From positions 1-34,489 of the IMG/VR virus record IMGVR_UViG_3300027627_000015: DNA of 34,489 bases; one strand, given 5' to 3'. Made by a program: the position numbers and the translations under genes. The DNA is from a virus. Lineage: Duplodnaviria > Caudoviricetes. Below the pieces are notes generated by a model, which had not been told where the DNA came from, did not search any database, and was given only the letters and a program-made list of their open reading frames with translations. Below are positions 4,529 to 26,619 of this stretch, piece after piece. Every line of letters begins with the position of its first letter. The stretch's first letter is position 1.

Positions 4529-7500
4529 ATGGATAAGACGCTGCTCCCTAACCCGGTTATCACTGCGTGGGCAAAGGAACGGGACGAGCTGGACGCCAGC
4601 TCGCCCAAGGGAAGTCATTGGAACGACTTCACGCCCGACATCCAGAACTCGGTGCTGACCCAGTTTGCGCAGAAGTGGCGCGACTCGAATCCGAAGAACT
4701 TGCAAGTGGATGGCTGGGCGTCTGACTTCTTCAACCGTGCCCAGCGCAAAGCCACGGAGGCGACTCCGGTGGAGGCAGCGCCAGTGCCGCAACCGAACAA
4801 CGCCACATTCGCGGGAGCCTTTCCGCCCAACCAGAACGGCCTCTCCCCGCGTCGCGCTCCGGTGACGTTCGCGCCGCGCAACTATGTCCCGCCTGACTCA
4901 GATATGCCGACGCAGTTCGGCACTCACATGGGTGGGCAATATCTCCAGTCCATCGCTGAGAAGAACGACCGCATCGCGATGTCGGCGGGTTTGGTGACGG
5001 GTCAGCTTACAGGCGAAGACCTTCAGCGCACCCTTAATGACGAGTTTGAGAACCGGAAGCTCCACCCTGAGCGGTTCCAAGAGCAGCCGGGCATCCTCCC
5101 ACGCATCGCGGGCGAGCTGTCCTACACGATTCCGGCGATGGTCGGCATGACAGTGGCCGGTGGCGGCCCTGCGGGGTTGCTCACGGCAGGTGCCCTCGAG
5201 TCCATGAGCAGCAAATTGCTCAGTCTCAAAGACAACTACTACGCGCTCCTCGACAAAGGGCTGGACCCAGCCGAAGCGTGGCAGAAGGCTGGGACTATCA
5301 GCAACATCTCCGCCGCCATCATGGGTGTGGCGTCCGCTGTTCCCATCGGCCAGACGGTGATGGCCGTCGGCGGCGGTCAAGCGACCAAAGAGACTTTGAA
5401 AATCGCGCTGGGCCAGCAACTCGGCACCAAGGCTGCGGAGAAGGTGGCCGGGTTGGCAGTAGCGAAGGGCTTCGACAATGCGGGCGCTACTGTGCTCGGT
5501 GGCGCTGCGAAAGCCCTCGGCGGGCTGTCACAGACAGGTGTGGCGAAGGTCGGCATCCTCGCGAGCATCCAAGGGGCGGAGAACCTCCTAGCCGAAGGTG
5601 CGGACATCAGCCAAGAGCGCACCCAAGGTAGTGACACCAGCGCCTATCGCGGCACGGCGGGCGAGCGATTACTTTTCGCCGGTGCAACTGGCGTCGGTAT
5701 CGGTTTTGCCCACGCGGGAGGTGCCCGCATCCTCGACCTCCGCTCCGGCAAAGTGGCCGGTGAAGAGACGGCGGCCCGCATCAACGGCGTCTTCCAGATG
5801 CTTGATGCCAACCTGCGCGGCGGTAGCGCAGCCGTGGAACAACTGGCGAAGATTAACTACGGCGACGGCCCGGGTGGCAACGCGGCCAAGTTGACCACAC
5901 AAGCCGTGTGGGACGCGGCAACCTTGGGGCAGAGCGGCTTGAAGATGACGGTCGAACCCGGCGCGCATCCCACGCAACCCGGCGCGCTCGCACAGGCGAC
6001 CCGTGACACAGTTAACTTCTACGGTAGGCTCGTCCAAGCGGATGACACCGCTAAGGTGGCGACTGTCACGCACGAAGCGGCGCACCCTTACTTTGACCAG
6101 CTTCACCCTGACGTGCAGCGGGCGGCGTTCCAGCGGTTCCAGCGTGAGCTGGGGTCAGGAGAGAGCGCCTTGTTTACCCGAGTGGAAGAGGACGGCAAGG
6201 TGCGCCTGACCACCCGTGAAGGCGTGGACCCGCAAATACTCGAGTCGTGGCAGAAAGCACTCCGCGCCACTGACCCCGAGGAGAAGGCCAAGCACACCAA
6301 CACCGCATTCCGTGAATGGTTCGCGGAGCATCTGACGTTGTCCCAGCTCGACTTTGTCTCCGGCCGAGTGAGGGCGGCGCAGGACACCTCGTTCTTCGGG
6401 TCGCTGACACGGGACATCCGCACCCGCAGCGAGTTGGTGGGCCGTGCGTTGGGCGTGCAGAACGCGCTCCTCGCTGGGTACCGCAACGTGCTGGACGCGC
6501 CGCTGCGCACCGACTACAACCCCTCTCTCACCATCGTCCGCGAAGCGATGGGCTTGAAAGAGGCTCCGGCTCCGAAAGACGCGGCTGCGGCTCCCGCTCC
6601 GACCCCCAAGGTTGCTGACCCGGCCCCAGAATCCATTGTCGGCACGGCTCCGAAAGACGCGACACCGGCCGAGCAGGCAATCTTCCTTTCCCCAGAAGCC
6701 CTCGTTGAACGTGCGAAGGGGATGTCCGTGTTTTTCAAGCCCCCTGAGTCGGCGGTTGTCGCACCCGAGTCGAAGCCGGTGGTAACGCCCGAACCCGTGT
6801 CAGTGACAGAGCCGCCTGCGGCAAAGCCAACGGCTGCTCCCGCACCGAAGCCTGAGCCGACCTTGGAAGCCACGGTTGCTAAGAAAGTGTTGAAAGCCAA
6901 GCTCAAGGCACTGGCCCCCGAGCTTCCGCCGGTCGAAATTAAGCCGGAAATTAAACAAATTGAGGCGGAACCGTCGATTGCGACCAAAGAACCTGTGGCC
7001 CAAGATGACATCGCTTCGCCGATGCCGGACGCGAAGTTCGCACCGAAGCCTGAGCCGATGTCCGGCGAGAAGTTCAAGTCCTCCCCCGAAGACCTTGGCT
7101 ACAACTACGGAGGGAAAGCCGACGCCCCGATTACCCGTGTCGGCGACCGTGTGTCATTCATACGGACGGAGACAGTGCTCAAAGACGGCAAGACCATCCA
7201 ATCCCCCCGTGGCCGTGTGGGCGGCGAGGTGGTGGGGTTCAGCCGGAACGGGCGAGTCATCGTCCAGATGCGGCAAGCGGGTACGGCGACGACGACGCAG
7301 CAACATTTCTCGGGCGCATCAAAGTTGCGGCTGGAAGCGGCTTTGCCGACGGCCGTCCCGACGGCAGCGCCGAAGAGCAAGGCCACCCGTGTCGCCGAGA
7401 CGCTGCTGGAGCGGGGCGAGGCCATCACCAACACCGAGCTGTGGCGGCTGCGCGATGCGATTGACGCTGAAATCGCTCCCCAGCGCGAGGCGAGGCGCAA

Positions 7501-10500
7501 GCTCATCGAATTTGAAGAAGGCGACCTGTCCAAACGTGGCGATGACCCGCTCGCGCCCAACCGCAGCCTGTGGCTGGCCCCCGATGGTGGCACCTATGAC
7601 GCGGAGTTCCACGGCGCGACCCCGGATGGTTCGAGTTACAGCCACGGGTTGTTCATCAAGCAGTGGGTGCGGGACCGACTTAGCCCTCGCCGTGCGGGCA
7701 AGTTCCCCGAGGCCGAAGTGGACAGTGCGCGGCGGATGAAGGCGCGGGTGGACGAGATGTTGGCGGCGGACCCGGCGCTGCGCGGTGACGCGGATGAGGA
7801 CGGCCAGTACAGCATCTTCTCCGCCGACCAAACGTGGAACCAAGCCGCGCAAGAGCGTGGCTGGGTGCGCATCAAACCGATGCCGGTCCCGACCAACCGT
7901 GCGACCATCTTCGCCGAGAGTGCTGGCGATATGTCCGCCGCGCAACGGGCCGCGCTACAACTGGCCACCGACAAGGGGATGGAGGTGCGGTACATCCGTG
8001 GCGGTGCGTTGGCCAATCGTGCGGCGTTCTCGGAGTACCGGGCGTTCGTAGACAGGGTCGGGCAGGAGGAAGGGTATCTGACGCGCCGTGGCGACCTCGT
8101 GGATGAGACGACCGTTGGGCCGAGAGGCGCGCTCTTCGTGTCGCCGAACATCCGAGAGGGCTTAAATTTCAACGACGCCGTGACCGCGCTACGCGGTGAG
8201 CGACACGCTCAAGTGCGGGCCTTCGCCGAGAAAGTGGATAAGTGGTTGCCACCCTCCGAACGCCACGATGCCATCGGCGACTGGAAGGACGGGGCGGAGA
8301 ACTCAACCGTGACCATGTACGGCCCGGATGTCCCGTACAAAGATGTGCGAGTGGCGGGAGCTTTGCTCGGCGACCACGCGCGCCAAAAGTCCGTGCTGAC
8401 GTTTCGTTCCGACCCGTTCCGAGCCAACTCGGCCCTTTACGACTTCATCCTGCCCGGCACGTTTGAAGACGCGCGGGTCATCCTGACGAGACACGGCTTT
8501 GAGCATCGAACGCTGGTTGACCACAAAGACGGTGTGCGCGTAATGTTGTTCGACAACGAGGCATCATTGGTGGATAACGTCCGAAACCTTTCTTATGAAA
8601 ATGACATCAAAATCACAAGGGTCCGTGGGTACGGCGAGTTCTTCGGAAGCAAAATCGACTCCCGCGAAGACGCCGCGAAAGTTTTCCGAGATGTCGCCGG
8701 AAGAGCAGGAGGCGGTGTTCAGCGACCCTTGCTTCGTGGACGGGACGGCCAAGGGGATGCAGTATATTTTGCCCAGCTCCGGGCAGAAGCCGAGCGCGGA
8801 GCCGTAGCCGACCTTTCCACGCGCGGCTCGCGGCGGTTCCCCGAGCGCGCCGCCGAGGGCGACCCAGACTTGAAGGACATCCGAGACAATCGTCCTGACA
8901 TAGCGGGGTACGAGACGCAGGTCATCGCCACCGGTAAGGCGGAGGCGAACATGAAGACGGACGCCGAGTTGGTCACGTCGGCCGACCGCCTCACGGACAT
9001 GGTGCAGACCGACACCGCGAAGAACTTCCTCGTATTAGACGGGTTGGAGCTGATGCAGCGAGCCTTAGCCAAAGGCGACCGCATCACCGCTGAAGGTGCG
9101 TTCGACACGATTTCAAAGGCGGGCACGACCTTCGGTCAGTTGCTTCGTCAATTCGCTGAGTTGAAAGCGACCCCCGCCCACGTCGCCGCTGTGGTGGAGA
9201 TTGGCCTCGGCAAGAAGGGGTTGATGTTGCAGCCGCACCAGAAAGCGGACCTCAAAGCCAAGCTCGACGCAGCAGACACCGCAACTGCGGCGCACTCCGC
9301 TGCGGTTGATGCCGCCTTGCTGAACCCGTCCGACGCCACATACAAGGTGGCTGAAGCGGCAGAGTCTGTCGCCCGCCGTGCCAAGCTCAATTGGGTCAGG
9401 GACTTAGAAGTGCTGCTGCCGCGCGAGAGCCTGTCGCAAGACTTCTTGTCGGTAATTCAAGGCAACTTGCTCACGCCGAAGTCGGAGCTGCGAAACTTCC
9501 TGAGCAATTACTCACGCGGAGTCATTGACCTCCCCGCGCGGACCGTCGGTGCTATGGGAGACGCTGTCTGGTCGGCCATCACCGGCACCCCTCGGACGGT
9601 GAAGATGCCGACGTTGACCGAAGGACAGTGGGTCGCTGCTGCCTCGATGCGCGCTGTCCCCGACGCGGTAGACACGCTGCTGCGTGGCCCCGGCGGCTCG
9701 GACATTCTCGGGGAGCGCATACGTGGGTTCCACCCTGTGGGTGCTTTAATCAAAGCGTTAAACGGCGACCTGCCAGTGGACATGGGCACTGGCCGTGTCC
9801 CACTGAAGCTTCGCACCGCGAAACTGGCCGAGGCGTTCTTCGGCGCGACCCCTGAGCCGATGCTCCGTGGTCTTGCGGCGTTCGACAACATCGCCAAAGC
9901 CGGTCTGCGCGCCTCCCGGATGGCGCAAGAGGTTGACCTCCGTAGCGCGGCCGAAGGCACGCGGGAATACGCGGAAGCGAAATTGATGGCGACCCGTCAA
10001 CTGAGGGCGACCGCCGAAGAGGCAGCCTTGGAAGGTACGTTCCAAAACGCCAGTGCCCCTGCGATGGCGGCCTCGGCCGTCGAAGGTATCATCCGCCGAA
10101 CCGCAGGAGAACCGGGCGTCACCGCGTTCCGCCTAATGACGAGTGTGTATCAGCGCACGCCGCTCAACGTCTTGGCGACCACGCTACCTTACCTCGTCCC
10201 ACCACTGGCGGGTGCCCAGATGGTGTACCACGCTCGGACCGGCAACCGGCGAGAAGCGGGCATTGACTTCGGTAAGTTCTGGGTCGGCACGACCATCGCC
10301 GCCATCTCTGACCTACTCCTCCGGGACGACCTCATCTCCGGTGGACCTGAGTCCGAGGAGAACCTACGCCGTCTCCGAAGCTCGGAAGACATGGGTTACT
10401 ACCGGGTCAATCTCACGGGCTTGCAGCGCAAGCTCGACGGTGGCGACGGCAAGTACCAGACTGGCGACACCTCGGTGCGCTTGGACCTCCTCGGTGTCCC

Positions 10501-11341
10501 CGGTGTCCTCCTCGGTGTCCGCGCTGACATGGCTCGCATCGATGGCAAGTCCTCGAAAAACCGGGTGGAGGGCGAACCGACTTTCAACCTCGACGTGTTC
10601 GGAGAGGTGTTGGGGATGTCACGGTTCATGGTCGAGACGACTATGTTTCAGAACGTAGGCAAAGGACTCAGAGCTGTCGCCAACGGTGAGTTCGCGGCGT
10701 ACCTCCAAAACCTGTTCCAGCAAGTTTCCGTCGTCCGTCCCGACTTCGCAAACACGGTGACGGCCATCCGCCACGCGGACCAGCCGTACCGTGTGGACCT
10801 TGCCGACCGAGGGAATGGCAAGAACGTGGTCGAGCAAGTTTGGGAAAATGTAATCAAGCACAAGAAGGGTGAGTGGGACGACTTGCCGAGGAAGCTGAAC
10901 CTGTGGGGCCAGCCGATTCCCAACGTCCCCGCTGGACGGAACCCCTACGTATACAACCTCGTCGATGTCCTGATGCCCGCGAACCAGCAGGACGCGGCGG
11001 TGACGGTCATTCGCGACGCATTCACCGCGACTGGCGACAAGGGGGTCATCCCCGGCTGGCCGAACCGCGTGCTCTCTTACAAAGACTTGCCGCAGGGAAT
11101 GTATCTCTCCGGAAAGATGTACGAGTCTTACGTCACGGCCGTGCAGGGAGCGAAGCTCGACGGGCTGAAGATGCTGATGGCGGACAAAGATTTTCAGAAG
11201 GCCGACGGCGATGCTCAGGCGAAGGCAATGCAGCGGATTTACGACCGCACCGGCGGGAAGGCCGAGCTGCGATGGCGCTACGAGCACCGCGACGAGTTGG
11301 AGGTGGAGCGCACGAAGCTCAAGGCGTTTCTAAATCGTTAG
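4529..11341 (+). CDS. Giant polyvalent DNA-ejection protein (2270 aa): zincin HExxH domain, Pro/Ala linker, KOW/SH3-like segment, WxxPDG..H..GWVR domain, SAM-lyase-like domain, helical C-terminal region
   Basis: Single long ORF ending the virion operon (T7 gp16 / P22 gp16 position). THEAAH at aa ~515-519 with EWFAE at ~596; C-terminal FQN, QRTPLNV, NLWGQPI and VIPGWP motifs resemble large polyvalent ejection proteins. Confidence 0.8.
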   Translation: MDKTLLPNPVITAWAKERDELDASSPKGSHWNDFTPDIQNSVLTQFAQKWRDSNPKNLQVDGWASDFFNRAQRKATEATPVEAAPVPQPNNATFAGAFPPNQNGLSPRRAPVTFAPRNYVPPDSDMPTQFGTHMGGQYLQSIAEKNDRIAMSAGLVTGQLTGEDLQRTLNDEFENRKLHPERFQEQPGILPRIAGELSYTIPAMVGMTVAGGGPAGLLTAGALESMSSKLLSLKDNYYALLDKGLDPAEAWQKAGTISNISAAIMGVASAVPIGQTVMAVGGGQATKETLKIALGQQLGTKAAEKVAGLAVAKGFDNAGATVLGGAAKALGGLSQTGVAKVGILASIQGAENLLAEGADISQERTQGSDTSAYRGTAGERLLFAGATGVGIGFAHAGGARILDLRSGKVAGEETAARINGVFQMLDANLRGGSAAVEQLAKINYGDGPGGNAAKLTTQAVWDAATLGQSGLKMTVEPGAHPTQPGALAQATRDTVNFYGRLVQADDTAKVATVTHEAAHPYFDQLHPDVQRAAFQRFQRELGSGESALFTRVEEDGKVRLTTREGVDPQILESWQKALRATDPEEKAKHTNTAFREWFAEHLTLSQLDFVSGRVRAAQDTSFFGSLTRDIRTRSELVGRALGVQNALLAGYRNVLDAPLRTDYNPSLTIVREAMGLKEAPAPKDAAAAPAPTPKVADPAPESIVGTAPKDATPAEQAIFLSPEALVERAKGMSVFFKPPESAVVAPESKPVVTPEPVSVTEPPAAKPTAAPAPKPEPTLEATVAKKVLKAKLKALAPELPPVEIKPEIKQIEAEPSIATKEPVAQDDIASPMPDAKFAPKPEPMSGEKFKSSPEDLGYNYGGKADAPITRVGDRVSFIRTETVLKDGKTIQSPRGRVGGEVVGFSRNGRVIVQMRQAGTATTTQQHFSGASKLRLEAALPTAVPTAAPKSKATRVAETLLERGEAITNTELWRLRDAIDAEIAPQREARRKLIEFEEGDLSKRGDDPLAPNRSLWLAPDGGTYDAEFHGATPDGSSYSHGLFIKQWVRDRLSPRRAGKFPEAEVDSARRMKARVDEMLAADPALRGDADEDGQYSIFSADQTWNQAAQERGWVRIKPMPVPTNRATIFAESAGDMSAAQRAALQLATDKGMEVRYIRGGALANRAAFSEYRAFVDRVGQEEGYLTRRGDLVDETTVGPRGALFVSPNIREGLNFNDAVTALRGERHAQVRAFAEKVDKWLPPSERHDAIGDWKDGAENSTVTMYGPDVPYKDVRVAGALLGDHARQKSVLTFRSDPFRANSALYDFILPGTFEDARVILTRHGFEHRTLVDHKDGVRVMLFDNEASLVDNVRNLSYENDIKITRVRGYGEFFGSKIDSREDAAKVFRDVAGRAGGGVQRPLLRGRDGQGDAVYFAQLRAEAERGAVADLSTRGSRRFPERAAEGDPDLKDIRDNRPDIAGYETQVIATGKAEANMKTDAELVTSADRLTDMVQTDTAKNFLVLDGLELMQRALAKGDRITAEGAFDTISKAGTTFGQLLRQFAELKATPAHVAAVVEIGLGKKGLMLQPHQKADLKAKLDAADTATAAHSAAVDAALLNPSDATYKVAEAAESVARRAKLNWVRDLEVLLPRESLSQDFLSVIQGNLLTPKSELRNFLSNYSRGVIDLPARTVGAMGDAVWSAITGTPRTVKMPTLTEGQWVAAASMRAVPDAVDTLLRGPGGSDILGERIRGFHPVGALIKALNGDLPVDMGTGRVPLKLRTAKLAEAFFGATPEPMLRGLAAFDNIAKAGLRASRMAQEVDLRSAAEGTREYAEAKLMATRQLRATAEEAALEGTFQNASAPAMAASAVEGIIRRTAGEPGVTAFRLMTSVYQRTPLNVLATTLPYLVPPLAGAQMVYHARTGNRREAGIDFGKFWVGTTIAAISDLLLRDDLISGGPESEENLRRLRSSEDMGYYRVNLTGLQRKLDGGDGKYQTGDTSVRLDLLGVPGVLLGVRADMARIDGKSSKNRVEGEPTFNLDVFGEVLGMSRFMVETTMFQNVGKGLRAVANGEFAAYLQNLFQQVSVVRPDFANTVTAIRHADQPYRVDLADRGNGKNVVEQVWENVIKHKKGEWDDLPRKLNLWGQPIPNVPAGRNPYVYNLVDVLMPANQQDAAVTVIRDAFTATGDKGVIPGWPNRVLSYKDLPQGMYLSGKMYESYVTAVQGAKLDGLKMLMADKDFQKADGDAQAKAMQRIYDRTGGKAELRWRYEHRDELEVERTKLKAFLNR
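8595..8807 (+). CDS. Putative 70-aa protein nested in the +1 frame of the giant ejection gene
   Basis: ATG in a locally AT-rich context; protein-like core KFSEMSPEEQEAVFSDPCFVDGTAKGMQYI, while the main frame turns Arg/Gly-rich over the same bases. Confidence 0.4.
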   Translation: MKMTSKSQGSVGTASSSEAKSTPAKTPRKFSEMSPEEQEAVFSDPCFVDGTAKGMQYILPSSGQKPSAEP

Positions 11342-19501: not shown

Positions 19502-19537
19502 GTGGTGTGGTGGTGTGGTTGTTTCGACGTGTGCATA

Positions 19538-19933: not shown

Positions 19934-20007
19934 AGGCGCACCCCCGCTTTCCGGTCGGCGCGGGTTGTGAACATGGAGACGAAGGCGGCGAGGATGTCGC
20001 GAATCAT
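19930..20007 (-). CDS. Translationally coupled 25-aa peptide (MIRDILAAFVSMFTTRADRKAGVRL)
   Basis: AGGAGGT SD at 20011-20017; ATGA overlap with the HTH gene stop and GTGA overlap with the resolvase start. Below the ORF-track length cutoff. Confidence 0.55.
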   Translation of the reverse strand: MIRDILAAFVSMFTTRADRKAGVRL

Positions 20008-20249
20008 AGAACCTCCTTGGGGTTGGGAGCCGTGGCCGATGCATCCAAGTAATGCTGTATGTCGTCAGGATGGATTCGGTAGCACCTCGAGGTCAGCCGA
20101 TGAGCACGCAGTGCGCCGGACTTTATCCAACTGCGTACTGTACTACGTTGCACTCCGAGCCATGACGCGGCTGCGGCAAGGTCCATAAGACCTTCGACTT
20201 CAGCCAGTTTTTCGGGGGTTTTCTGGTTTCGGGGGGTGGTGTCCTTCAT
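20004..20249 (-). CDS. Excisionase/Cro-like winged HTH DNA-binding protein
   Basis: LMDLAAAASWLGVQRSTVRSWIKSGALRA...YRI..DDI..YL (HTH_17/MerR-like pattern); first gene of the leftward early operon. Confidence 0.85.
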   Translation of the reverse strand: MKDTTPRNQKTPEKLAEVEGLMDLAAAASWLGVQRSTVRSWIKSGALRAHRLTSRCYRIHPDDIQHYLDASATAPNPKEVL

Positions 20250-20258
20250 GTGGCGCAC

Positions 20259-20288
20259 ACTGTATTCGAGTGTGTTCGTGTTCGTCAA
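20259..20288 (-). promoter_or_regulatory. Sigma70-like leftward early promoter
   Basis: TTGACG (20283-20288) - 18 nt - TACAGT (20259-20264), ~10 nt before the HTH ATG, implying a nearly leaderless mRNA. Confidence 0.6.
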
Positions 20289-20345
20289 TACTTTTTTCAA
20301 AAATAATTGTTGAGAAAGTATTAGAGTGCGGTAGAGTGCATTCGT
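20288..20345 (+). promoter_or_regulatory. Divergent control region: AT-rich imperfect inverted repeat and candidate rightward promoter
   Basis: AATACTTTTTTCAA...TTGAGAAAGTATT inverted repeat; TTGAGA (20310-20315) - 16 nt - TAGAGT (20332-20337); tandem TAGAGTGC. Confidence 0.45.
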
Positions 20346-20368
20346 TTCTTGGCAGTATTGAAGAAAAT

Positions 20369-20704
20369 ATGAAATCACTAGACCCCCAAGCGCGCGGTGC
20401 GGCCGCCGGACTCTCACTGCGTTTCTCCCGCGCCACCCTCGACCGAATCGCCAGTGTCGCTCGACGCAGTGACCTCACTACGTCCGAACTCTGCCGCAGC
20501 CTCGTCGAAGGCGCGCTCGACCAAGTGGACACGGCGGCGATTCCCGTCGGGGACTTGCCGAAGCCGCTGGTGCGCGTGCGTCAGCGTTTGTCCGAAGCGC
20601 CGCAGCCAGTGGTCGCACCCACCGACGTCGCGCCGGAAGTACTCGCGGCCATCGAAGCCCGCATCCTCGCCCAAGTCCTCGCCGCAGTGGCGAAGCGGCC
20701 TTAG
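20369..20704 (+). CDS. Ribbon-helix-helix (Arc/CopG-like) regulator, candidate repressor
   Basis: LSLRFSRATLDRIASVARRSDLTTSELCRSLVEGAL; transcribed divergently from the HTH/replication operon. Confidence 0.75.
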   Translation: MKSLDPQARGAAAGLSLRFSRATLDRIASVARRSDLTTSELCRSLVEGALDQVDTAAIPVGDLPKPLVRVRQRLSEAPQPVVAPTDVAPEVLAAIEARILAQVLAAVAKRP

Positions 20705-21908: not shown

Positions 21909-22350
21909 GTGGCACCCTGTAGTGGCACCATATTTGGGGAGGACAACTGTGTGTCAAACAGGATTCGATTCCCTTCACCCGCTCCACTTAACCCCTTCAT
22001 AAACAGTGGTTTACGCGAATTACAAAACCGTGTGACCAGTTGTTTCCACTTTCAAAACAGGGTGTTTTAGCAAAGGTTGGTGGCACCATCGGGGGCCATG
22101 CTTTTCGGTATGGTGCCACACGATTGCGACCAATAGCCATGCGGGTGCGGTGAGGGTCGAGGGGGATTTGGTGGCACCATGCTGGCCAAGTTGCCACGGC
22201 GGCCGCCAGCGGCGGTGGCCCCATGTATCATACATATTCACATATACATAATAGGGGGGGGTATGGTGCCACCAAGGTACCATTGGCCTATGGCTATTGG
22301 TCGGGATTGGTGGCACCATACCCCGTTTATGGTGCCACTTGGTGGTACCA
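21909..22350. repeat. Cluster of (TG)GTGGCACCA iteron-like repeats in both orientations around an AT-rich core (candidate ori)
   Basis: Copies at 21909, 21922, 22078, 22111(inv), 22169, 22214(degenerate), 22264(inv), 22308, 22330(inv) and 22340(variant); AT-rich 22224-22253 followed by G8. Confidence 0.8.
21964..21986 (+). other. attP core matching the 3' end of tRNA-Gly(CCC-type)
   Basis: TTCGATTCCCTTCACCCGCTCCA = T-loop, 3' T-stem, acceptor strand and CCA of tRNA-Gly; no 5' half of the tRNA upstream; 160 bp from the int start. Confidence 0.85.
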
Positions 22351-22476
22351 CCCCCTGCTTTCGGGCATGGCTTCCGGCGAGCGCCATACGCGAGCCGCGC
22401 CGCGCTGGACCGCTGTCCTATCGCGCCAACGATGGCGCGTAAATCTATCCTTATTAAAATGACAAATTTTTGGCAC

Positions 22477-22513
22477 AAAAAAACCCCCGCACAGGCGTGA
22501 ACCTGTACGGGGG
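22477..22513 (-). terminator. Intrinsic terminator of the AAA+/vWA operon
   Basis: Minus strand CCCCCGTACAGGT-TCAC-GCCTGTGCGGGGG followed by T7. Confidence 0.85.
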
Positions 22514-22621
22514 CGTCGAAACACCACGGCCACCGTGGAGCTGCGGCTTGGGCACCACACCCGAGTTCGCGCTGTCAACGTAGCGTTGACGGGTGGCGGG
22601 GGCAAGCCGATTAGTGTGGAC

Positions 22622-22720
22622 TCATGTTTGACCCACCCTGCCGTGTCGTCGCTTTCGACACGTCCGGCCCTCGTGTCGAAAGTATCCATCTTTTTCGACT
22701 GGACTGATAACTTGACTCAT
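22622..22720 (-). CDS. Possible 32-aa basic peptide
   Basis: ATGA overlap with the upstream stop (MSQVISPVEKDGYFRHEGRTCRKRRHGRVGQT); overlaps an 11-bp hairpin, so it may be non-coding. Confidence 0.25.
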   Translation of the reverse strand: MSQVISPVEKDGYFRHEGRTCRKRRHGRVGQT

Positions 22721-23028
22721 GGTCGGGGGAAGCGGATGTAGAACACGTCTGTGTCTATGTTGGTGAGCGCGTCAACGATGGCGCGTTCCGTCTCGTCGAA
22801 CGGTTGCTGATGGAGCGCGCTCGCCCATACACGCGCGGTGTACGCGACAGCGTCGTGGCTGATTATCGCGTCAACGCCGCGAGCCTGTTCGTTGTGTTCG
22901 TCTCCGTCGTCGGCCGCGAGGTAGACAAACTCCTGCAAGGAGTCTGCCTCGCGCTGGTCGAGGAGCACGTCAGTGACACGTATGTGCACATATTGGCGAA
23001 TGGTTACTATTTTTGTAGTCGTTTTCAT
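22717..23028 (-). CDS. Hypothetical protein (103 aa)
   Basis: A/C-rich leader like other genes in this phage; protein-like composition; lies inside the operon. Confidence 0.7.
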   Translation of the reverse strand: MKTTTKIVTIRQYVHIRVTDVLLDQREADSLQEFVYLAADDGDEHNEQARGVDAIISHDAVAYTARVWASALHQQPFDETERAIVDALTNIDTDVFYIRFPRP

Positions 23029-23101
23029 GGTGTGGTTTTTCTGTGTGGTTTGGGTTGTCTAAGACAAGGGGCGAGGGACTTGCGTCCCCCGCCTTGGTGT
23101 G

Positions 23102-24793
23102 TCAGCGGGTGCTTCGTGTGATGTACTCGCACAGTGCGCCAGCAAGCTGTGCGCCTGATTCGCGGGTTACGTGGCGGCCGAAGTGCCACTGTAGCGCGTC
23201 GGGGATTTGGCTCGTCGAGGAGCACGTCGCCGCGCCGATGAGGTTGACGCCTCTGCCTCGGTACGAACCAGCGTCCACGAGGCCATCCGAGATGTTTCCG
23301 TCTGTGTAGCAGACGACTGCGCTGGCGTCCCGCAGCGTTTGGAGCGGGATGGCCGCGAGTGTGGCGGCGTACGACTCGCAACCATGCGCTGGTGCGATGG
23401 CTGCTAGCTCGGCGTCCGGCTGGCGTAAGTCCACCTTGTGGTGATAGCCGTCGCCCGTCAGGTAAACGTCAACGTGCAGCGTGCCGGAGCGATGCAGTGC
23501 GGCGAGGGACAACAAAAACGGACGGCCGTGAGTGTTGTGCCGTCCGGCCATTGACCCCGAGCCATCGAACACCACTACGATTTTCCGCTTCCCCTTGGTG
23601 ACGCCGCGTTGGACGAACGCATTCGCCTGTCCCGATACCGCATTCTGCGGGTGAATGCGCGGCCCGTCACATCCAGTGCGGATGGGAGCCGTGTCAGCGC
23701 GCCGCACTAGCCCTGTGAGCGTTGCGACTTGCTGTGCAACGAGCGGCCGCAGTCCATTCACTAGGTCTTGACCGCGAGTGGTCCCGTTGTGCTTGTGCGT
23801 CAGCCCCTTGTCTTGGAAGAACTCGATACCGCGATGGTGCCGATGGACTGGAGCACTTGTCGGACCGCCGTAGGCATTCGTGTCCGCTCGCGTTTGCGCT
23901 GGTGCCGCACCGTCATACAACCCGCCGTTGGTCACGCTGCCGTTGCCGCCGCTTGCGCCGCCCGAGTTTTTGACCGGAGCCACTTCGGGACCGACGGGAG
24001 TGCCGCCGCTGGACCCGTCATTCTGCGCACCAATGCTGTCAGTGACACGAGGTTGTGGCGGCGTTGTTCCGCCGAATATGGCGACCCACCGGACGCACAC
24101 GTCCACGATTTCCTCGGTGCTCACTGCGGCGATGGCCTGTGCGAAGAAGTCTCGGATGGTGCGACCGACCGCACCAGCGCCGATGGTCGGCCCGAGGTTC
24201 GCGGGCTTCCAATCGCCGCCAGTCCAGCGCGGCGCTCGGACCGTGAGCGATGAGTACGAGGACGACTCTCCGTTTATTAGCGCCCAAAAGTACTCGGTCG
24301 GGCGCTTCGTTTCCTCGGGTTGAGCGTAGTAGTTCACCCAGCCAAACCGCTGCCCTCGTGTGGACGGATGCAGCCTCGCGGCGTGTTCGATTCGTGCGTC
24401 CTCGAACAGGTTGAGCAAGGCGAACGGGACGCCCTTTGTCCGGCATTGCGCCGCGATGCTATCCAATGACGGCTGCGTTCTGTGCCCGTGCCAGCATTCA
24501 TGCAGCAGCAGCGATTGCAACGCGCTGTACGATTTGCTGTCACTGACAGCGGCCGCTGGCAACAGTCCGGCACGCCATTGCGCGCCAAGTTCGATGCGGT
24601 GCCCACCAGTGTCGAACCGCCAACTTGCTGTTTGCGATGGCGTGCCGAGTTTTACGCTCACGGTCCAACGTGTAGCGGTGCCGAGTGTGCGGACGCAGCC
24701 TTCGTGCTGCTTGGCCGTCTTGCGACGCGTCCCCCATGAGCGGACGTTTGCGAGTAGTTTTTGGTCAATACCGTGAGCGATGGACGTGTTCAT
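23102..24793 (-). CDS. vWA-domain protein with N-terminal HExxH metallopeptidase-like domain (CobT/DUF2201-like)
   Basis: LLLHECWHGH plus NLFEDARIE; Gly/Ser linker; MIDAS VVVFDGSGSM and CYTDG. Start taken as ATG at 24793. Confidence 0.85.
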   Translation of the reverse strand: MNTSIAHGIDQKLLANVRSWGTRRKTAKQHEGCVRTLGTATRWTVSVKLGTPSQTASWRFDTGGHRIELGAQWRAGLLPAAAVSDSKSYSALQSLLLHECWHGHRTQPSLDSIAAQCRTKGVPFALLNLFEDARIEHAARLHPSTRGQRFGWVNYYAQPEETKRPTEYFWALINGESSSYSSLTVRAPRWTGGDWKPANLGPTIGAGAVGRTIRDFFAQAIAAVSTEEIVDVCVRWVAIFGGTTPPQPRVTDSIGAQNDGSSGGTPVGPEVAPVKNSGGASGGNGSVTNGGLYDGAAPAQTRADTNAYGGPTSAPVHRHHRGIEFFQDKGLTHKHNGTTRGQDLVNGLRPLVAQQVATLTGLVRRADTAPIRTGCDGPRIHPQNAVSGQANAFVQRGVTKGKRKIVVVFDGSGSMAGRHNTHGRPFLLSLAALHRSGTLHVDVYLTGDGYHHKVDLRQPDAELAAIAPAHGCESYAATLAAIPLQTLRDASAVVCYTDGNISDGLVDAGSYRGRGVNLIGAATCSSTSQIPDALQWHFGRHVTRESGAQLAGALCEYITRSTR

Positions 24794-24828
24794 GTTTTTC
24801 CTTTTTGGTTCGTGTTTCGGTGCATGTC

Positions 24829-26169
24829 TTAGACAACCTTGAGTACTTGCGTGATGGTTTCGCGGGCCTTGGCGTCTGTGTCGCCGAGGTCCAAATCCCA
24901 ATTTGCGGAATGTGCCACGGCCAGCTCCTTGATGAGCGCCGTAACGCCCGCCTCATCCTGCGTGGCGCAGTGGGCAGCGGCACACTCGAGCAAGCGGAAA
25001 TCCACAGGATAGGCACAGCTTCCCGACTTGGTTGTGATTCGAGTAGCTCCAATCAGTTGTGCGAACTTTTCTGGCAAGCCGTTCGAGGGGATGCCGTACT
25101 TGTCTAGAATGGACTTTGCGATTGCGGTGCAATCCGAAAGGGACCAGTCCAAGCGGAGCTTTGCGTTTAGGCGGGACCAGAGCGCCTCGAATGGCTTGAC
25201 GTACCCGAGGTTGGATGCCGCGACGAGGTGCAAATTCGCAGCAGGGCATTCGATGACCTCGAGTATGTTGCCGTCGGGCTTCCGAGTCCTGAGCCTGTAG
25301 GTGGGCACGCCCTTCACGTCCACAGTCGTGAGAAACAGGAGCAACCATTGCTGTGCCGATTCGTTGAGGCGAAACGTCTCGTCCAAAAACAGCAGCACAG
25401 ACTTGCCCGAGGACGCTGCACGCACCGCTTGGGTGATGACGCCATCGACGATGCTAAAGCCGCCCTTGCCGTCTGGAACGAACGAACCCAGCAACGTGCT
25501 CACTTCATCCGCTTCCGGCGAGCAACCGTGCTCCAAGAACACGTCATAGCCCTTGCCGAAGATTCGGACGCCGTAGGACTTGCCGTAGGACGGCGGTGAC
25601 AGTAGCAAAACATGAGAGTTGTGGGTCGGCTGTCCCGCCTTGTAAAAACGGGACAACCAATCGACGACCTTGTTCCCGCTCACGGCAGCGGCGAGGATGG
25701 GCAAGCGTCTCGCTGTCACGGCGTCCGTTGCGGCCCGTGCCGCCAGCGCCGCCAGCGGTCGGAGCGTTTCCAGCTCTTCCTCGAGGTCGGCGATGCGAGA
25801 ATTTATCGGCGACGTTTCGCCATCGACAATGGTCCGCACTTCTTCCGCTCCAAGTCCGCCTTTGGTGCCGCCGAATATCGACGCGATTTGTTCGAGGACA
25901 AGGCGAGGGTCAGGTGAGGCCGGAGCGTGGGTGGGCGCTGGTGCCGGAGCCGCAAGTGCGTTGCGGGCAATGACAGCGCTCAAGGTGGCGTCGGTTGTGT
26001 CGTTGTAAGCCGCTCGAATCTCGGCTTGCGACAGGATGGCGACGACTGCACGGGACACGCCGCGCGCTTGCAACCATTGACGAGCGACTTCCCGTAAGGG
26101 GCCGCCTACGATGGCTGCTGTGCCGCGAGCGCCGAGTAGCGGTTCGCATTCTTGGATGGTCTTTTTCAT
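24829..26169 (-). CDS. MoxR/CobS-like AAA+ ATPase
   Basis: HVLLLSPPSYGKS Walker A variant, LFLDE Walker B, VAASN sensor 1, ALWSR Arg finger; N-terminal coiled coil. Confidence 0.87.
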   Translation of the reverse strand: MKKTIQECEPLLGARGTAAIVGGPLREVARQWLQARGVSRAVVAILSQAEIRAAYNDTTDATLSAVIARNALAAPAPAPTHAPASPDPRLVLEQIASIFGGTKGGLGAEEVRTIVDGETSPINSRIADLEEELETLRPLAALAARAATDAVTARRLPILAAAVSGNKVVDWLSRFYKAGQPTHNSHVLLLSPPSYGKSYGVRIFGKGYDVFLEHGCSPEADEVSTLLGSFVPDGKGGFSIVDGVITQAVRAASSGKSVLLFLDETFRLNESAQQWLLLFLTTVDVKGVPTYRLRTRKPDGNILEVIECPAANLHLVAASNLGYVKPFEALWSRLNAKLRLDWSLSDCTAIAKSILDKYGIPSNGLPEKFAQLIGATRITTKSGSCAYPVDFRLLECAAAHCATQDEAGVTALIKELAVAHSANWDLDLGDTDAKARETITQVLKVV

Positions 26170-26194
26170 GGTGTTTTTGGTCCGTTTTTGTGGT

Positions 26195-26248
26195 GGGGTT
26201 TCGACTAAGCCGTCTCATCAGGCACAGTTGGCTACGCTGTGCGACCCC
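26195..26248 (-). ncRNA. Type III hammerhead ribozyme
   Basis: Minus strand GGGGUC/GCACAG-CGUAGCCAA-CUGUGC-CUGAUGA-GAC-GGCUUA-GUC-GAAA-CCCC: complete catalytic core, three perfect stems, GUC cleavage triplet, and complementary loops (AGCC/GGCU). Confidence 0.93.
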
Positions 26249-26585
26249 GACTCACGAGTGATATGGGCCTACCGCAGGGGCAGGAAGCTCGTGAGCTGTC
26301 AGTGACACGCCGTGAGTCATGCTTTGAACCTCGATTGCTCAAGGGTGCGTCTTCACTCGTGTGACTCCCGCTTGGCCGATTGAATGGTTATGCGGGGATG
26401 GTCGGGCAATGGACTTGCGGGTCCACTGCTGCCGTTAAGCTGTCCTGTGACGGGGACTCCCTCGTCGGTTCCAGCGTGTCTTTCCGCTCGTGGTGCGGTC
26501 ATGTTCGATGCCGCTCGGCGTGCCCTTTTCCGTCCGGCAAGGACGTGGCGCTTTGGATTCGGTGCGGCAAAACCGATGAACAACG
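26249..26585 (-). ncRNA. Candidate structured leader RNA upstream of the hammerhead
   Basis: No convincing ORF; serial stems such as CGUCC/GGACG, GUCC/GGAC, GCAGUGGAC/GUCCAUUGC, CCCGC/GCGGG, GAGUCA/UGACUC and CUCACGAG/CUCGUGAG. Confidence 0.5.
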
Positions 26586-26590
26586 ACAAC

Positions 26591-26619
26591 ATTGAACTGC
26601 ATTCGAGTCTATTTGTCAA
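26591..26619 (-). promoter_or_regulatory. Sigma70-like promoter for the leader-ribozyme-AAA+/vWA operon
   Basis: TTGACA (26614-26619) - 17 nt - TTCAAT (26591-26596). Confidence 0.65.

What the first reader, a model, noticed from the sequence alone, without database searches (positions are those of the whole stretch)
22477..26619. Candidate self-contained system: promoter - structured RNA - ribozyme - AAA+ ATPase - HExxH/vWA protein - small ORF - structured trailer - terminator
Seen: a 4.1-kb transcription unit with its own promoter and terminator, running opposite to the head genes and placed between attP/ori and terS, with structured non-coding segments at both ends. Established: MoxR/CobS AAA+ proteins pair with vWA partners as substrate-remodelling chaperones and occur in phages. 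Inference: coupling this pair, which here has an intact HExxH+E zincin motif, to a self-processed RNA could define an early host-takeover, anti-defence or RNA-protein module. I do not recognise this combination as a described system. If packaging starts near terS, the unit would lie at a genome end and could be among the first or last DNA injected.
Basis: partly seen in the sequence, partly recalled or inferred. Interest (0 to 1): 0.8.

Follow-up and report, generated by a model that had tools for sequence, protein, structure and literature searches.

The report
Phage cassette with ribozyme and silencer-RNA
A freshwater phage carries a likely early three-gene cassette (an ATP motor, its protease-like adaptor and an orphan gene) that opens with a complete hammerhead self-cutting RNA motif and closes with a predicted small RNA complementary to the start of each of those genes, so the phage likely switches the cassette off by RNA pairing.

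Summary
The anatomy is real; the "self-contained new system" reading holds only in part. The proteins are a MoxR-type AAA+ ATPase and an HExxH-zincin/vWA partner, a pair already described in phages. The hammerhead is a complete type III motif whose stems and loop-loop contact covary with the nearest relative. It is optional: 12 of 38 complete homologous operons have one nearby, in three positions and two topologies. The 103-aa ORF and the leader sequence are not shared by the family. The new point is the "trailer". Its last ~94 nt look like a small RNA gene with its own promoter. Of 30 start regions in the window, only four have an exact complement of 8 nt or more to it: the three cassette genes and the helicase. 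One site is the hammerhead's own 3' arm. Three lineages use different seeds, each matching its own start motifs (5 of 28 loci pass at ≤1%; 19 show nothing). Best reading: an early host-remodelling operon, processed by a ribozyme and shut off by an antisense sRNA. Nothing is tested at the bench, and the protein target is unknown.

The parts
26591..26619 (-). Probable main promoter: -35 TTGACA (26619-26614), 17 nt, -10 TTCAAT (26596-26591; lacks the usual A at -11)
   Evidence: Sequence; not listed by the scanner; L077 has TTGACA-17-CACACT at the same place; an RNA-run contig begins at 26566
26249..26584 (-). About 335-nt non-coding leader, the predicted 5' cleavage product; lineage-specific
   Evidence: Fold z -1.1; no Rfam match; no homology to other leaders; one 322-nt RNA-run contig covers 26245-26566
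26195..26248 (-). Type III hammerhead ribozyme motif, predicted cut between 26243 and 26242, 73 nt before the AAA+ start; loop I/loop II base-paired contact
   Evidence: stems I/II/III of 6/3/4 bp, full core; stems and loop contact change in pairs in L077 and L100
26193..26205 (-). Predicted sRNA target 1: the hammerhead's 3' arm (stem II strand, GAAA, stem III strand), 12 bp with one bulge
   Evidence: a perfect 13-bp match at the same place in L077
26169..26176 (-). Predicted sRNA target 2: 8 nt running into the AAA+ start codon
24829..26169 (-). MoxR/CbbQ/NorQ-like AAA+ ATPase, 446 aa, with a variable N-terminal region
   Evidence: Motifs; model pLDDT 75; best fold matches CbbQ2 and NorQ (Z 15.4, rmsd 4.4, 244 aligned)
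24812..24819 (-). Predicted sRNA target 3: 8 nt, 26 nt before the vWA start
23102..24793 (-). N-terminal HExxH...E zincin-like domain, low-confidence linker (267-317), C-terminal vWA/MIDAS domain, 563 aa
   Evidence: vWA matches Rea1/MDN1 MIDAS (Z 17.2, rmsd 3.0, 201 aligned) and NorD; full-length matches to phage 'CobT'/vWA proteins
23070..23093 (-). G+C-rich hairpin after the vWA stop, weak U-tail; likely a stabilising or processing hairpin
   Evidence: a hairpin follows the vWA stop in most of the 17 loci folded
23029..23036 (-). Predicted sRNA target 4: 8 nt directly before the 103-aa start
22717..23028 (-). 103-aa orphan ORF, a lineage-specific passenger
   Evidence: One relative at 69%; no hit in other loci, Pfam, PHROGs, PADLOC or the Atlas
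22627..22709 (-). Variable spacer between short direct repeats
   Evidence: Replaced by 11 letters in contigs of runs X15, X18 and X20
22577..22605 (-). Predicted second promoter: TTGCCC, 17 nt, TACGTT
   Evidence: same pattern and place in 6 of 9 seed-bearing loci, 0 of 20 others, 11 of 2,524 background windows
22477..22570 (-). Candidate ~94-nt antisense sRNA: two 5' hairpins carrying the anti-start seeds, then the intrinsic terminator (22514-22477)
19504..19528 (-). Predicted extra target outside the unit: helicase start region (two 9-nt complements, net -20.9 kcal/mol)
   Evidence: not conserved in the L077 genome or L049/L056

Best explanation
This is likely an early operon of a temperate phage: it encodes a MoxR-type ATPase and a zincin/vWA adaptor that are predicted to grip and remodel or clip an unknown protein, its message likely cuts itself at the hammerhead motif, and a predicted 94-nt RNA at its end, which is complementary to the start of all three genes, likely shuts their translation off. 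Steps: (1) Transcription starts near 26584, away from terS (inferred from an imperfect promoter). (2) The hammerhead would cleave during transcription, releasing the ~340-nt leader and leaving an mRNA that begins with a 5'-OH and a hairpin, a form that resists 5'-end-dependent decay (established knowledge, not tested here). (3) The ATPase would form a ring and work through the MIDAS site of the vWA protein, as CbbQ/CbbO and NorQ/NorD do; the kept HExxH+E motif would let the adaptor also cut the client or itself. A host protein is the likeliest client because the cassette sits with early and replication genes, not with structural genes (inference). (4) The terminal sRNA, made from its own predicted promoter or as the mRNA's 3' end, would pair with the start regions and so act as an off-switch or timer. 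The hammerhead and the sRNA are lineage-level add-ons to an old protein pair, not fixed parts of one particle.
For: Pair fixed: vWA gene follows the ATPase in 62 of 75 loci; the other 13 end at or just after the ATPase. Catalytic and MIDAS residues invariant in 132 of 132 sequences. Folds. Hammerhead: full core, covarying stems and loop contact; 19 of 19 hits in 51 cluster representatives lie on the ATPase strand, 0 in three shuffles of 559 kb; found in six lineages, at least 5 gains or losses forced (quick tree); Rfam confirms two relatives. One RNA-run contig spans the leader and stops 2 nt short of the cut, with no loose end, at depth 9.2 against 2.6-3.8 for the cassette's gene contigs (weak). 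sRNA: 4 of 30 start regions have a complement of 8 nt or more, all on the early arm; 3 of 3,000 shuffled seeds hit all three cassette starts, and 1 non-trivial window of 4,920 in the genome does, the sRNA itself; 5 of 28 loci at or below 5 of 500 shuffles, 9 of 28 at or below 25; own-lineage trailers score 15-20 and cross-lineage ones 8-15 in a 7 x 7 table; seed TGGCGGGG invariant in 7 of 7 aligned relatives while the flanks vary; the related strain's deletion spares promoter and sRNA. Early context in relatives: replication and small orphan genes.
Against: No cleavage, expression or repression was measured. 26 of 38 complete operons lack a nearby hammerhead and 19 of 28 show no trailer complementarity. 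The window and L077 were where I first saw the pattern, so only L049 and the L014/L043 lineage are separate support, and the nine 'seed' loci were marked after viewing. Most window matches are only 8 nt, and one seed is partly paired in the predicted fold. The helicase site is not conserved. No promoter pattern was found for L077, L049 or L005. The RNA run also covers late genes (depth up to 43), is one study and contigs only, so it does not show early or special expression. The pair also occurs in cellular assemblies among ordinary genes, and PMC7824862 proposes virion assembly for such pairs. No PADLOC or Pfam family names either protein.
Confidence: 0.5

Rival explanations
1. End-to-end pairing in cis: the trailer is only the mRNA's 3' end and folds back on the 5' end left by the ribozyme, closing a loop that changes stability or translation; there is no separate sRNA.
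For: In the window and L077 the best match is the hammerhead arm, which becomes the new 5' end (12 and 13 bp), and the duplex stacks on the terminator in the cofold. In L049/L056 the match lies just after the hammerhead.
Against: Several start regions are matched, not one; a promoter pattern precedes the element in 6 of 9 loci; L016 and L054 have the element with no hammerhead call.
Confidence: 0.15
2. Ordinary case: a known phage MoxR/vWA-peptidase pair with an optional hammerhead; the trailer matches come from A/C-rich start regions or from a reused DNA motif and have no RNA function.
For: Matches are short; start regions here are low-complexity; 19 of 28 loci show nothing; GTCGAAA occurs four times in the trailer on both strands; a similar motif precedes the helicase of L085, whose called trailer has no complement.
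Against: Dinucleotide shuffles keep the composition and rarely match; seeds differ by lineage and track their own targets; the seed is invariant in a hairpin behind a promoter pattern.
Confidence: 0.2
3. The proteins serve virion assembly (chaperone plus maturation peptidase), and the RNA elements only time their synthesis.
For: Proposed for jumbo-phage MoxR plus metallopeptidase-vWA pairs, by analogy with Acidianus two-tailed virus (PMC7824862, passages). The cassette lies next to terS.
Against: It is transcribed away from the head genes here and in the related genomes that carry this terS, sits before replication genes in others, and occurs in cellular assemblies.
Confidence: 0.1
4. First reader's module: leader RNA, AAA+, vWA protein and 103-aa protein form one RNA-protein machine for takeover or anti-defence.
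For: The leader may persist as a separate RNA; long leaders recur before this operon, one with 19 covarying pairs; some vWA proteins are parts of RNA-protein particles (Ro60 at Z about 10, no better than other vWA folds).
Against: Leaders are not homologous between lineages; many operons have almost none; the 103-aa ORF is an orphan; no nucleic-acid-binding family matched the ATPase N-terminus in 25 members.
Confidence: 0.05

Closest known systems
Phage MoxR AAA+ with N-terminal metallopeptidase-vWA co-chaperone (Iyer et al. 2021, PMC7824862, passages); phage 'cobS/cobT' clusters (Liu et al. 2021, PMC8651126, passages)
   Same: Gene order, MoxR-type fold, HExxH domain fused before a MIDAS vWA domain; full-length fold matches to phage 'CobT'/vWA proteins
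   Different: A distant subfamily: no Pfam hit, one weak PHROG hit, no tblastn match among 50,697 GenBank phage records; found in a small temperate phage; flanked by RNA elements that those passages do not mention
CbbQ/CbbO and NorQ/NorD remodelling pairs; Rea1/Midasin MIDAS
   Same: Best structural matches of both proteins
   Different: About 12-19% identity; no Rubisco or nitric oxide reductase context; an added zincin-like domain
Hammerheads flanking prophage genes (Perreault et al. 2011, PMC3088659, section 6 and passages; review PMC6765202, passages)
   Same: Full core, loop contact, intergenic place in a phage operon, neighbours not constant
   Different: Type III here where most relatives use type II; missed by Rfam; its 3' arm is complementary to the terminal RNA
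OppZ and CarZ, 3'-end sRNAs that repress their own operons (Hoyos et al. 2020, PMC7398697, abstract)
   Same: RNA at the operon's 3' end pairing with its own transcript to block translation
   Different: Phage-borne; predicted own promoter instead of RNase E release; one shared motif before every gene; untested
c4 RNA of phages P1/P7 (review PMC12197685, passages); CI RNA of P4 (recalled)
   Same: Phage RNA acting on same-strand complementary sites near ribosome-binding sites of early genes
   Different: No Rfam match; lies at the operon end; targets a remodelling ATPase cassette, not an antirepressor

Membership tests
Hammerhead ribozyme (type III) | Core CUGANGA, GAAA, UH with three stems | tested here: met
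   stems 6/3/4 bp, GUC site
Hammerhead ribozyme (type III) | Tertiary contact between loops I and II | tested here: met
   4-bp loop pairing, 5 bp with a paired change in L077 and L100 (sequence-level only)
Hammerhead ribozyme (type III) | Match to an Rfam hammerhead model | tested here: not met
   no hit up to E 10; two type II relatives do match RF02276
Hammerhead ribozyme (type III) | Self-cleavage | not testable with these tools
   Only a weak hint from one RNA-run contig end
MoxR-type AAA+ ATPase | Walker A and B and AAA+ fold closest to CbbQ/NorQ | tested here: met
   relatives hit Pfam AAA_5
MoxR-type AAA+ ATPase | Adjacent vWA/MIDAS partner | tested here: met
   62 of 75 loci, the rest truncated; DxSxS, T, D kept
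MoxR-type AAA+ ATPase | Ring formation and physical binding to the vWA protein | not tested
   No complex model was obtained
Zincin-like metallopeptidase | HExxH plus a downstream Glu ligand | tested here: met
   H98, E99, H102, E131 invariant in 132 of 132; both motifs on helices in the model
Zincin-like metallopeptidase | Zincin fold of the N-terminal domain | tested here: inconclusive
   Fold lists were filled by the vWA domain; the domain was not folded alone; one relative hits PHROG 459 'peptidase' weakly
Cobaltochelatase CobS/CobT | Sequence match to CobS/CobT and a CobN partner | tested here: inconclusive
   Profile matches solved CobT only at E 0.02-0.1; no CobN among the window ORFs scanned; host not known
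Autoregulatory 3'-end sRNA (OppZ/CarZ-like) | Complementarity to start regions of its own operon | tested here: met
Autoregulatory 3'-end sRNA (OppZ/CarZ-like) | A discrete RNA that represses translation | not testable with these tools
   Needs northern blot and reporters
Described anti-phage defence systems | Match to a PADLOC model | tested here: not met
   0 of 3 window proteins (2023 library)

The most novel reading that the evidence does not exclude
An RNA-only switch: the terminal sRNA pairs with the hammerhead's catalytic arm on the nascent transcript, so a natural trans-acting RNA gates a self-cleaving ribozyme, and it blocks every start region of the cassette. In a temperate phage where no HTH_3-type repressor was found (0 of 2 records, one complete), this circuit could hold the lysogenic state and set immunity groups through lineage-specific seeds.
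Probability: 0.15. Interest if true: 0.85.

Novelty: new variant of a known kind. Interest (0 to 1): 0.56.

Why it matters
The purpose of self-cleaving ribozymes near phage genes is still open (PMC6765202, passages), and the client of the widespread phage MoxR/vWA-peptidase ('CobST') pair is unknown. This locus puts a canonical ribozyme, a predicted antisense RNA with named 8-13-nt targets and the protein pair in 4 kb, with natural seed variants in three lineages as built-in specificity controls. Both RNA claims can be tested in vitro and with reporters without the host. If the sRNA also gates the ribozyme, that would be a natural case that my searches of the library did not find.

Tried and rejected
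Rfam on the window and on 34 of the first 75 loci: no other ribozyme class at gathering score; the 22 later viral and 16 cellular loci were not scanned with Rfam. A shared leader family: window leader against six other leaders z 2.4 or less, no nhmmer hit; a motif picked by eye from window and L077 found only those two lineages and three chance hits in coding sequence. Selection on the leader: 7 differences in 322 nt against 216 in the 2.6-kb block that holds the ATPase, but the late genes are as conserved (139 in 6.4 kb), so not evidence. Unit-specific expression: rejected, late genes are covered too. No RNA contig over the sRNA among the rows shown (12 rows hidden); contigs would miss so short an RNA, so this says nothing. 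boxA-like element: none in the window. Rho-N/HeH nucleic-acid-binding domain at the ATPase N-terminus (a recalled resemblance): no Pfam or Atlas support. Helicase as a conserved sRNA target: not met in the L077 genome, L049 or L056. Host: not found; no ATPase-profile hit in genome contigs; integrase matches in four Verrucomicrobia-labelled assemblies are generic, 30-34%. Long ORFs in leader and trailer (89 and 120 aa) cross the promoter or terminator and have no PHROG hit. No AAA+/vWA complex model and no covariance model were obtained. In one search the L034 ATPase start was mis-set and the L028 and L097 vWA starts are doubtful; seven trailers were under 30 nt; 6 of 34 loci were dropped beforehand (no terminator call, or a cut start). 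The supplement of PMC5737381 could not be read; it, and the 2014-2015 ribozyme papers it cites (not read), may already list AAA+/vWA genes as ribozyme-associated or describe these leaders.
Full report
Setting. The window is most of a temperate phage genome: integrase, excisionase-like HTH, helicase, exonuclease and family A polymerase on the minus strand; terminase subunits, portal-like and major capsid genes on the plus strand. The record is linear and about 82% complete. Runs that hold half or more of the stretch's words are freshwater or lake metagenomes (8 rows). The host is not known. The unit lies between terS and a repeat-rich region next to the integrase; related genomes with the same terS, terL and integrase keep this layout.

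Proteins. ORF 24829-26169 has Walker A and B motifs, conserved among 16 aligned sequences, and its model matches CbbQ2 and NorQ best. ORF 23102-24793 has HExxH, a downstream EDxRIE and a full MIDAS motif; H98, E99, H102, E131, D132, S412, S414 and D498 are invariant in 132 of 132 full-length sequences (drawn from the best 150 of at least 500 profile hits). Its C-terminal domain matches Rea1/MDN1 MIDAS and NorD, and the whole model matches phage proteins labelled vWA or CobT. The N-terminal fold was not tested alone. The vWA gene follows the ATPase in 62 of 75 loci; the 13 others are cut at or just after the ATPase. The pair also occurs in assemblies labelled Sulfurimonas, Arcobacter, Akkermansia and Verrucomicrobia, mostly among ordinary genes. 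Such pairs are in print: PMC7824862 (passages) describes MoxR with a metallopeptidase-fused vWA protein in jumbo phages and proposes virion assembly; PMC8651126 (passages) finds cobST widespread in tailed viruses and proposes cobalamin synthesis; PMC11705849 (passages) calls the role speculative. The 103-aa ORF has one relative (69%) and none in the other loci.

Hammerhead. My pattern scan finds one motif in the window, type III, 26248-26195, with none as good in 100 Markov controls. Rfam misses it. In the nearest distinct relative (L077, vWA 44% identical) the motif is in the same place, stems I and III have changed in pairs, and the loop I/loop II pairing changes from AGCC/GGCT to TCGCC/GGCGA. 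Over 97 loci, 18 of 51 clusters at 90% ATPase identity hold a canonical hammerhead, the window's own cluster included; all 19 hits in the representatives are on the ATPase strand, and three shuffles of 559 kb give none. Among complete operons, 12 of 38 clusters (8 of 26 at 70%) have one between 400 nt before the ATPase and 100 nt after the vWA gene; three more lineages have one 1-2.9 kb upstream. Most are type II, and they sit before the ATPase, between the genes or after the vWA gene. A quick tree of 49 ATPases needs 7 changes, at least 5 forced. None of 16 cellular loci has one. L079 has two, before successive genes, and L086 a second core. This is the pattern of PMC3088659 (section 6): hammerheads flank genes in prophages and the genes vary. 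So the ribozyme belongs to the transcript, not to a fixed RNA-protein unit.

RNA data. One metatranscriptome holds a strain about 92% identical over the cassette. A 322-nt contig covers 26245-26566, ends 2 nt short of the predicted cut with no loose end, and is deeper (9.2) than the cassette's gene contigs (2.6-3.8); the next contig starts at 26227. This fits cleavage and a lasting leader, but it is one study, contigs only, among 46 short pieces, and late genes are covered as well or better. It is a weak hint.

Leader. It shows no overall folding signal, no Rfam match and no homology to other leaders. Other lineages have their own: the L005 group has a ~330-nt leader with 19 of 93 predicted pairs showing double changes, a boxA-like motif and a type II hammerhead. 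Many operons have almost no leader. I read the window's leader as lineage-specific, with no role assigned beyond carrying the ribozyme.

Trailer: the main new result. Its 5' part is dispensable (83 nt replaced in a related strain). Its 3' part has a promoter pattern (22605-22577) and then ~94 nt ending in the terminator. The 56 nt before the terminator stem have exact complements of 8 nt or more in 4 of 30 start regions of the window: ATPase (two sites, one the hammerhead's 3' arm), vWA, 103-aa ORF and helicase. Three of 3,000 shuffled seeds hit all three cassette starts, and of 4,920 windows of the genome only the element itself does, apart from three on the opposite strand of the ATPase start. 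A fixed test on 28 loci (60 nt before the called terminator against the ATPase and vWA start regions) gave 0, 0, 1, 3 and 4 of 500 shuffles for the window, L043, L049, L014 and L077, 8-21 for four more, and nothing for 19 (three loci had wrong or doubtful starts, seven had very short trailers, six were dropped before the test). The seeds differ: GTGTTTCGAC in the window and L077, TGGTTCTTGT in L049/L056, TTGGCGGGG in the L014/L043 group, each matching its own start motif; own-lineage scores are 15-20 and cross-lineage scores 8-15. In the third group the seed is invariant in 7 of 7 aligned loci while the hairpin around it varies, and its complement sits directly at several start codons. The promoter pattern is present in 6 of 9 seed-bearing loci, chosen after viewing, and 0 of 20 others. 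Against: the helicase site is not kept in the L077 genome or in L049/L056, matches are short, and no RNA evidence covers the element.

Mechanism. Shown by sequence and comparison: the protein families and intact active-site motifs, the hammerhead motif with covariation, the complementarity and its lineage specificity. Inferred: early timing, cleavage, stabilisation by the 5'-OH hairpin end, ring formation and client remodelling, a host client, the existence of the sRNA and repression. I put 0.5 on the whole reading; rivals are cis end-pairing (0.15), no RNA function for the trailer (0.2), virion assembly (0.1) and a fixed RNA-protein particle (0.05).

Comparison and novelty. It works like OppZ/CarZ (PMC7398697, abstract) and like c4 RNA (PMC12197685, passages), without being a member of either by sequence. 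Library searches for ribozyme + phage + MoxR, for ribozyme + phage + von Willebrand + AAA and for a temperate-phage antisense RNA on early start regions returned no paper; a search for a trans-acting sRNA on a hammerhead returned one unrelated review listing. The library lacks most subscription papers, and the supplement of PMC5737381, whose text says bacterial self-cleaving ribozymes lie near specific gene classes, could not be read. Unchecked notes from this scan report hammerheads at other phage MoxR/vWA operons and anti-start RNAs at the ends of other early operons; they are leads, not support, and I saw the second set only after my own test. Verdict: known parts, a new arrangement, with a testable RNA circuit; new variant of a known kind, interest 0.56.

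Noticed in passing
L005, L011-L014, L051, L053, L057, L058, L060, L066, upstream of the ATPase (e.g. L014:6185-6530): A ~330-nt leader with covarying stems, a boxA-like motif and a type II hammerhead with a bulge in stem III; no Rfam match in the members scanned; its 5' part recurs in L015/L016/L022 about 1.8 kb before the ATPase.
   Followed up: partly
Heads of the early operon in L005-group, L016, L019, L034, L043, L050: boxA-like TTTGA(A/C)AA motif (name recalled from rRNA leaders): 18 sense against 1 antisense hit within 3.2 kb upstream of the ATPase in 49 representatives; 13 against 8 elsewhere. Suggests Nus-type antitermination; absent from the window.
   Followed up: partly
window 21909-22351: Many direct and inverted GTGGCACC(AT) repeats, origin-like; the same repeat lies at the same place in L077.
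   Followed up: no
window 21961-21986: A tRNA-3'-end-like stretch beside the integrase, a likely attP core (tRNA-Gly by recall); also in L077; no whole tRNA gene in the window.
   Followed up: no
window and G005: No HTH_3 (CI-type) repressor found in this integrase-bearing phage or its complete relative; only one family was searched, and the HTH_17 protein at 20004-20417 could serve.
   Followed up: partly
L077:6880-6985: Between ATPase and vWA genes: a long hairpin followed by a hammerhead-like 3' arm without the CUGAUGA core, perhaps a decayed ribozyme kept as an sRNA target.
   Followed up: no
L003/L039, L006/L042, L090-L092 intergenic gaps: Long bulged hairpins before genes in operons with no hammerhead; possible RNase III-type processing sites standing in for the ribozyme.
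   Followed up: no
L019/L050 and L018/L034/L059, upstream of the ATPase: Two further lineage-specific non-coding leaders of 275-325 nt with no Rfam match in the members scanned.
   Followed up: no
ATPase N-termini across the family: At least two unrelated N-terminal domain types are joined to the same ATPase core; none matches Pfam.
   Followed up: partly
L049:10238-11080, L079:3661-4107, L082:8472-8906: A small endolysin-like (cell-wall hydrolase) domain gene directly after the vWA gene in two lineages.
   Followed up: no
L027:3875-3944: A 70-nt match to the tRNA-like ends of tmRNA with the whole middle missing.
   Followed up: no
window 4529-11341: A 2,270-aa ORF with no Pfam match.
   Followed up: no
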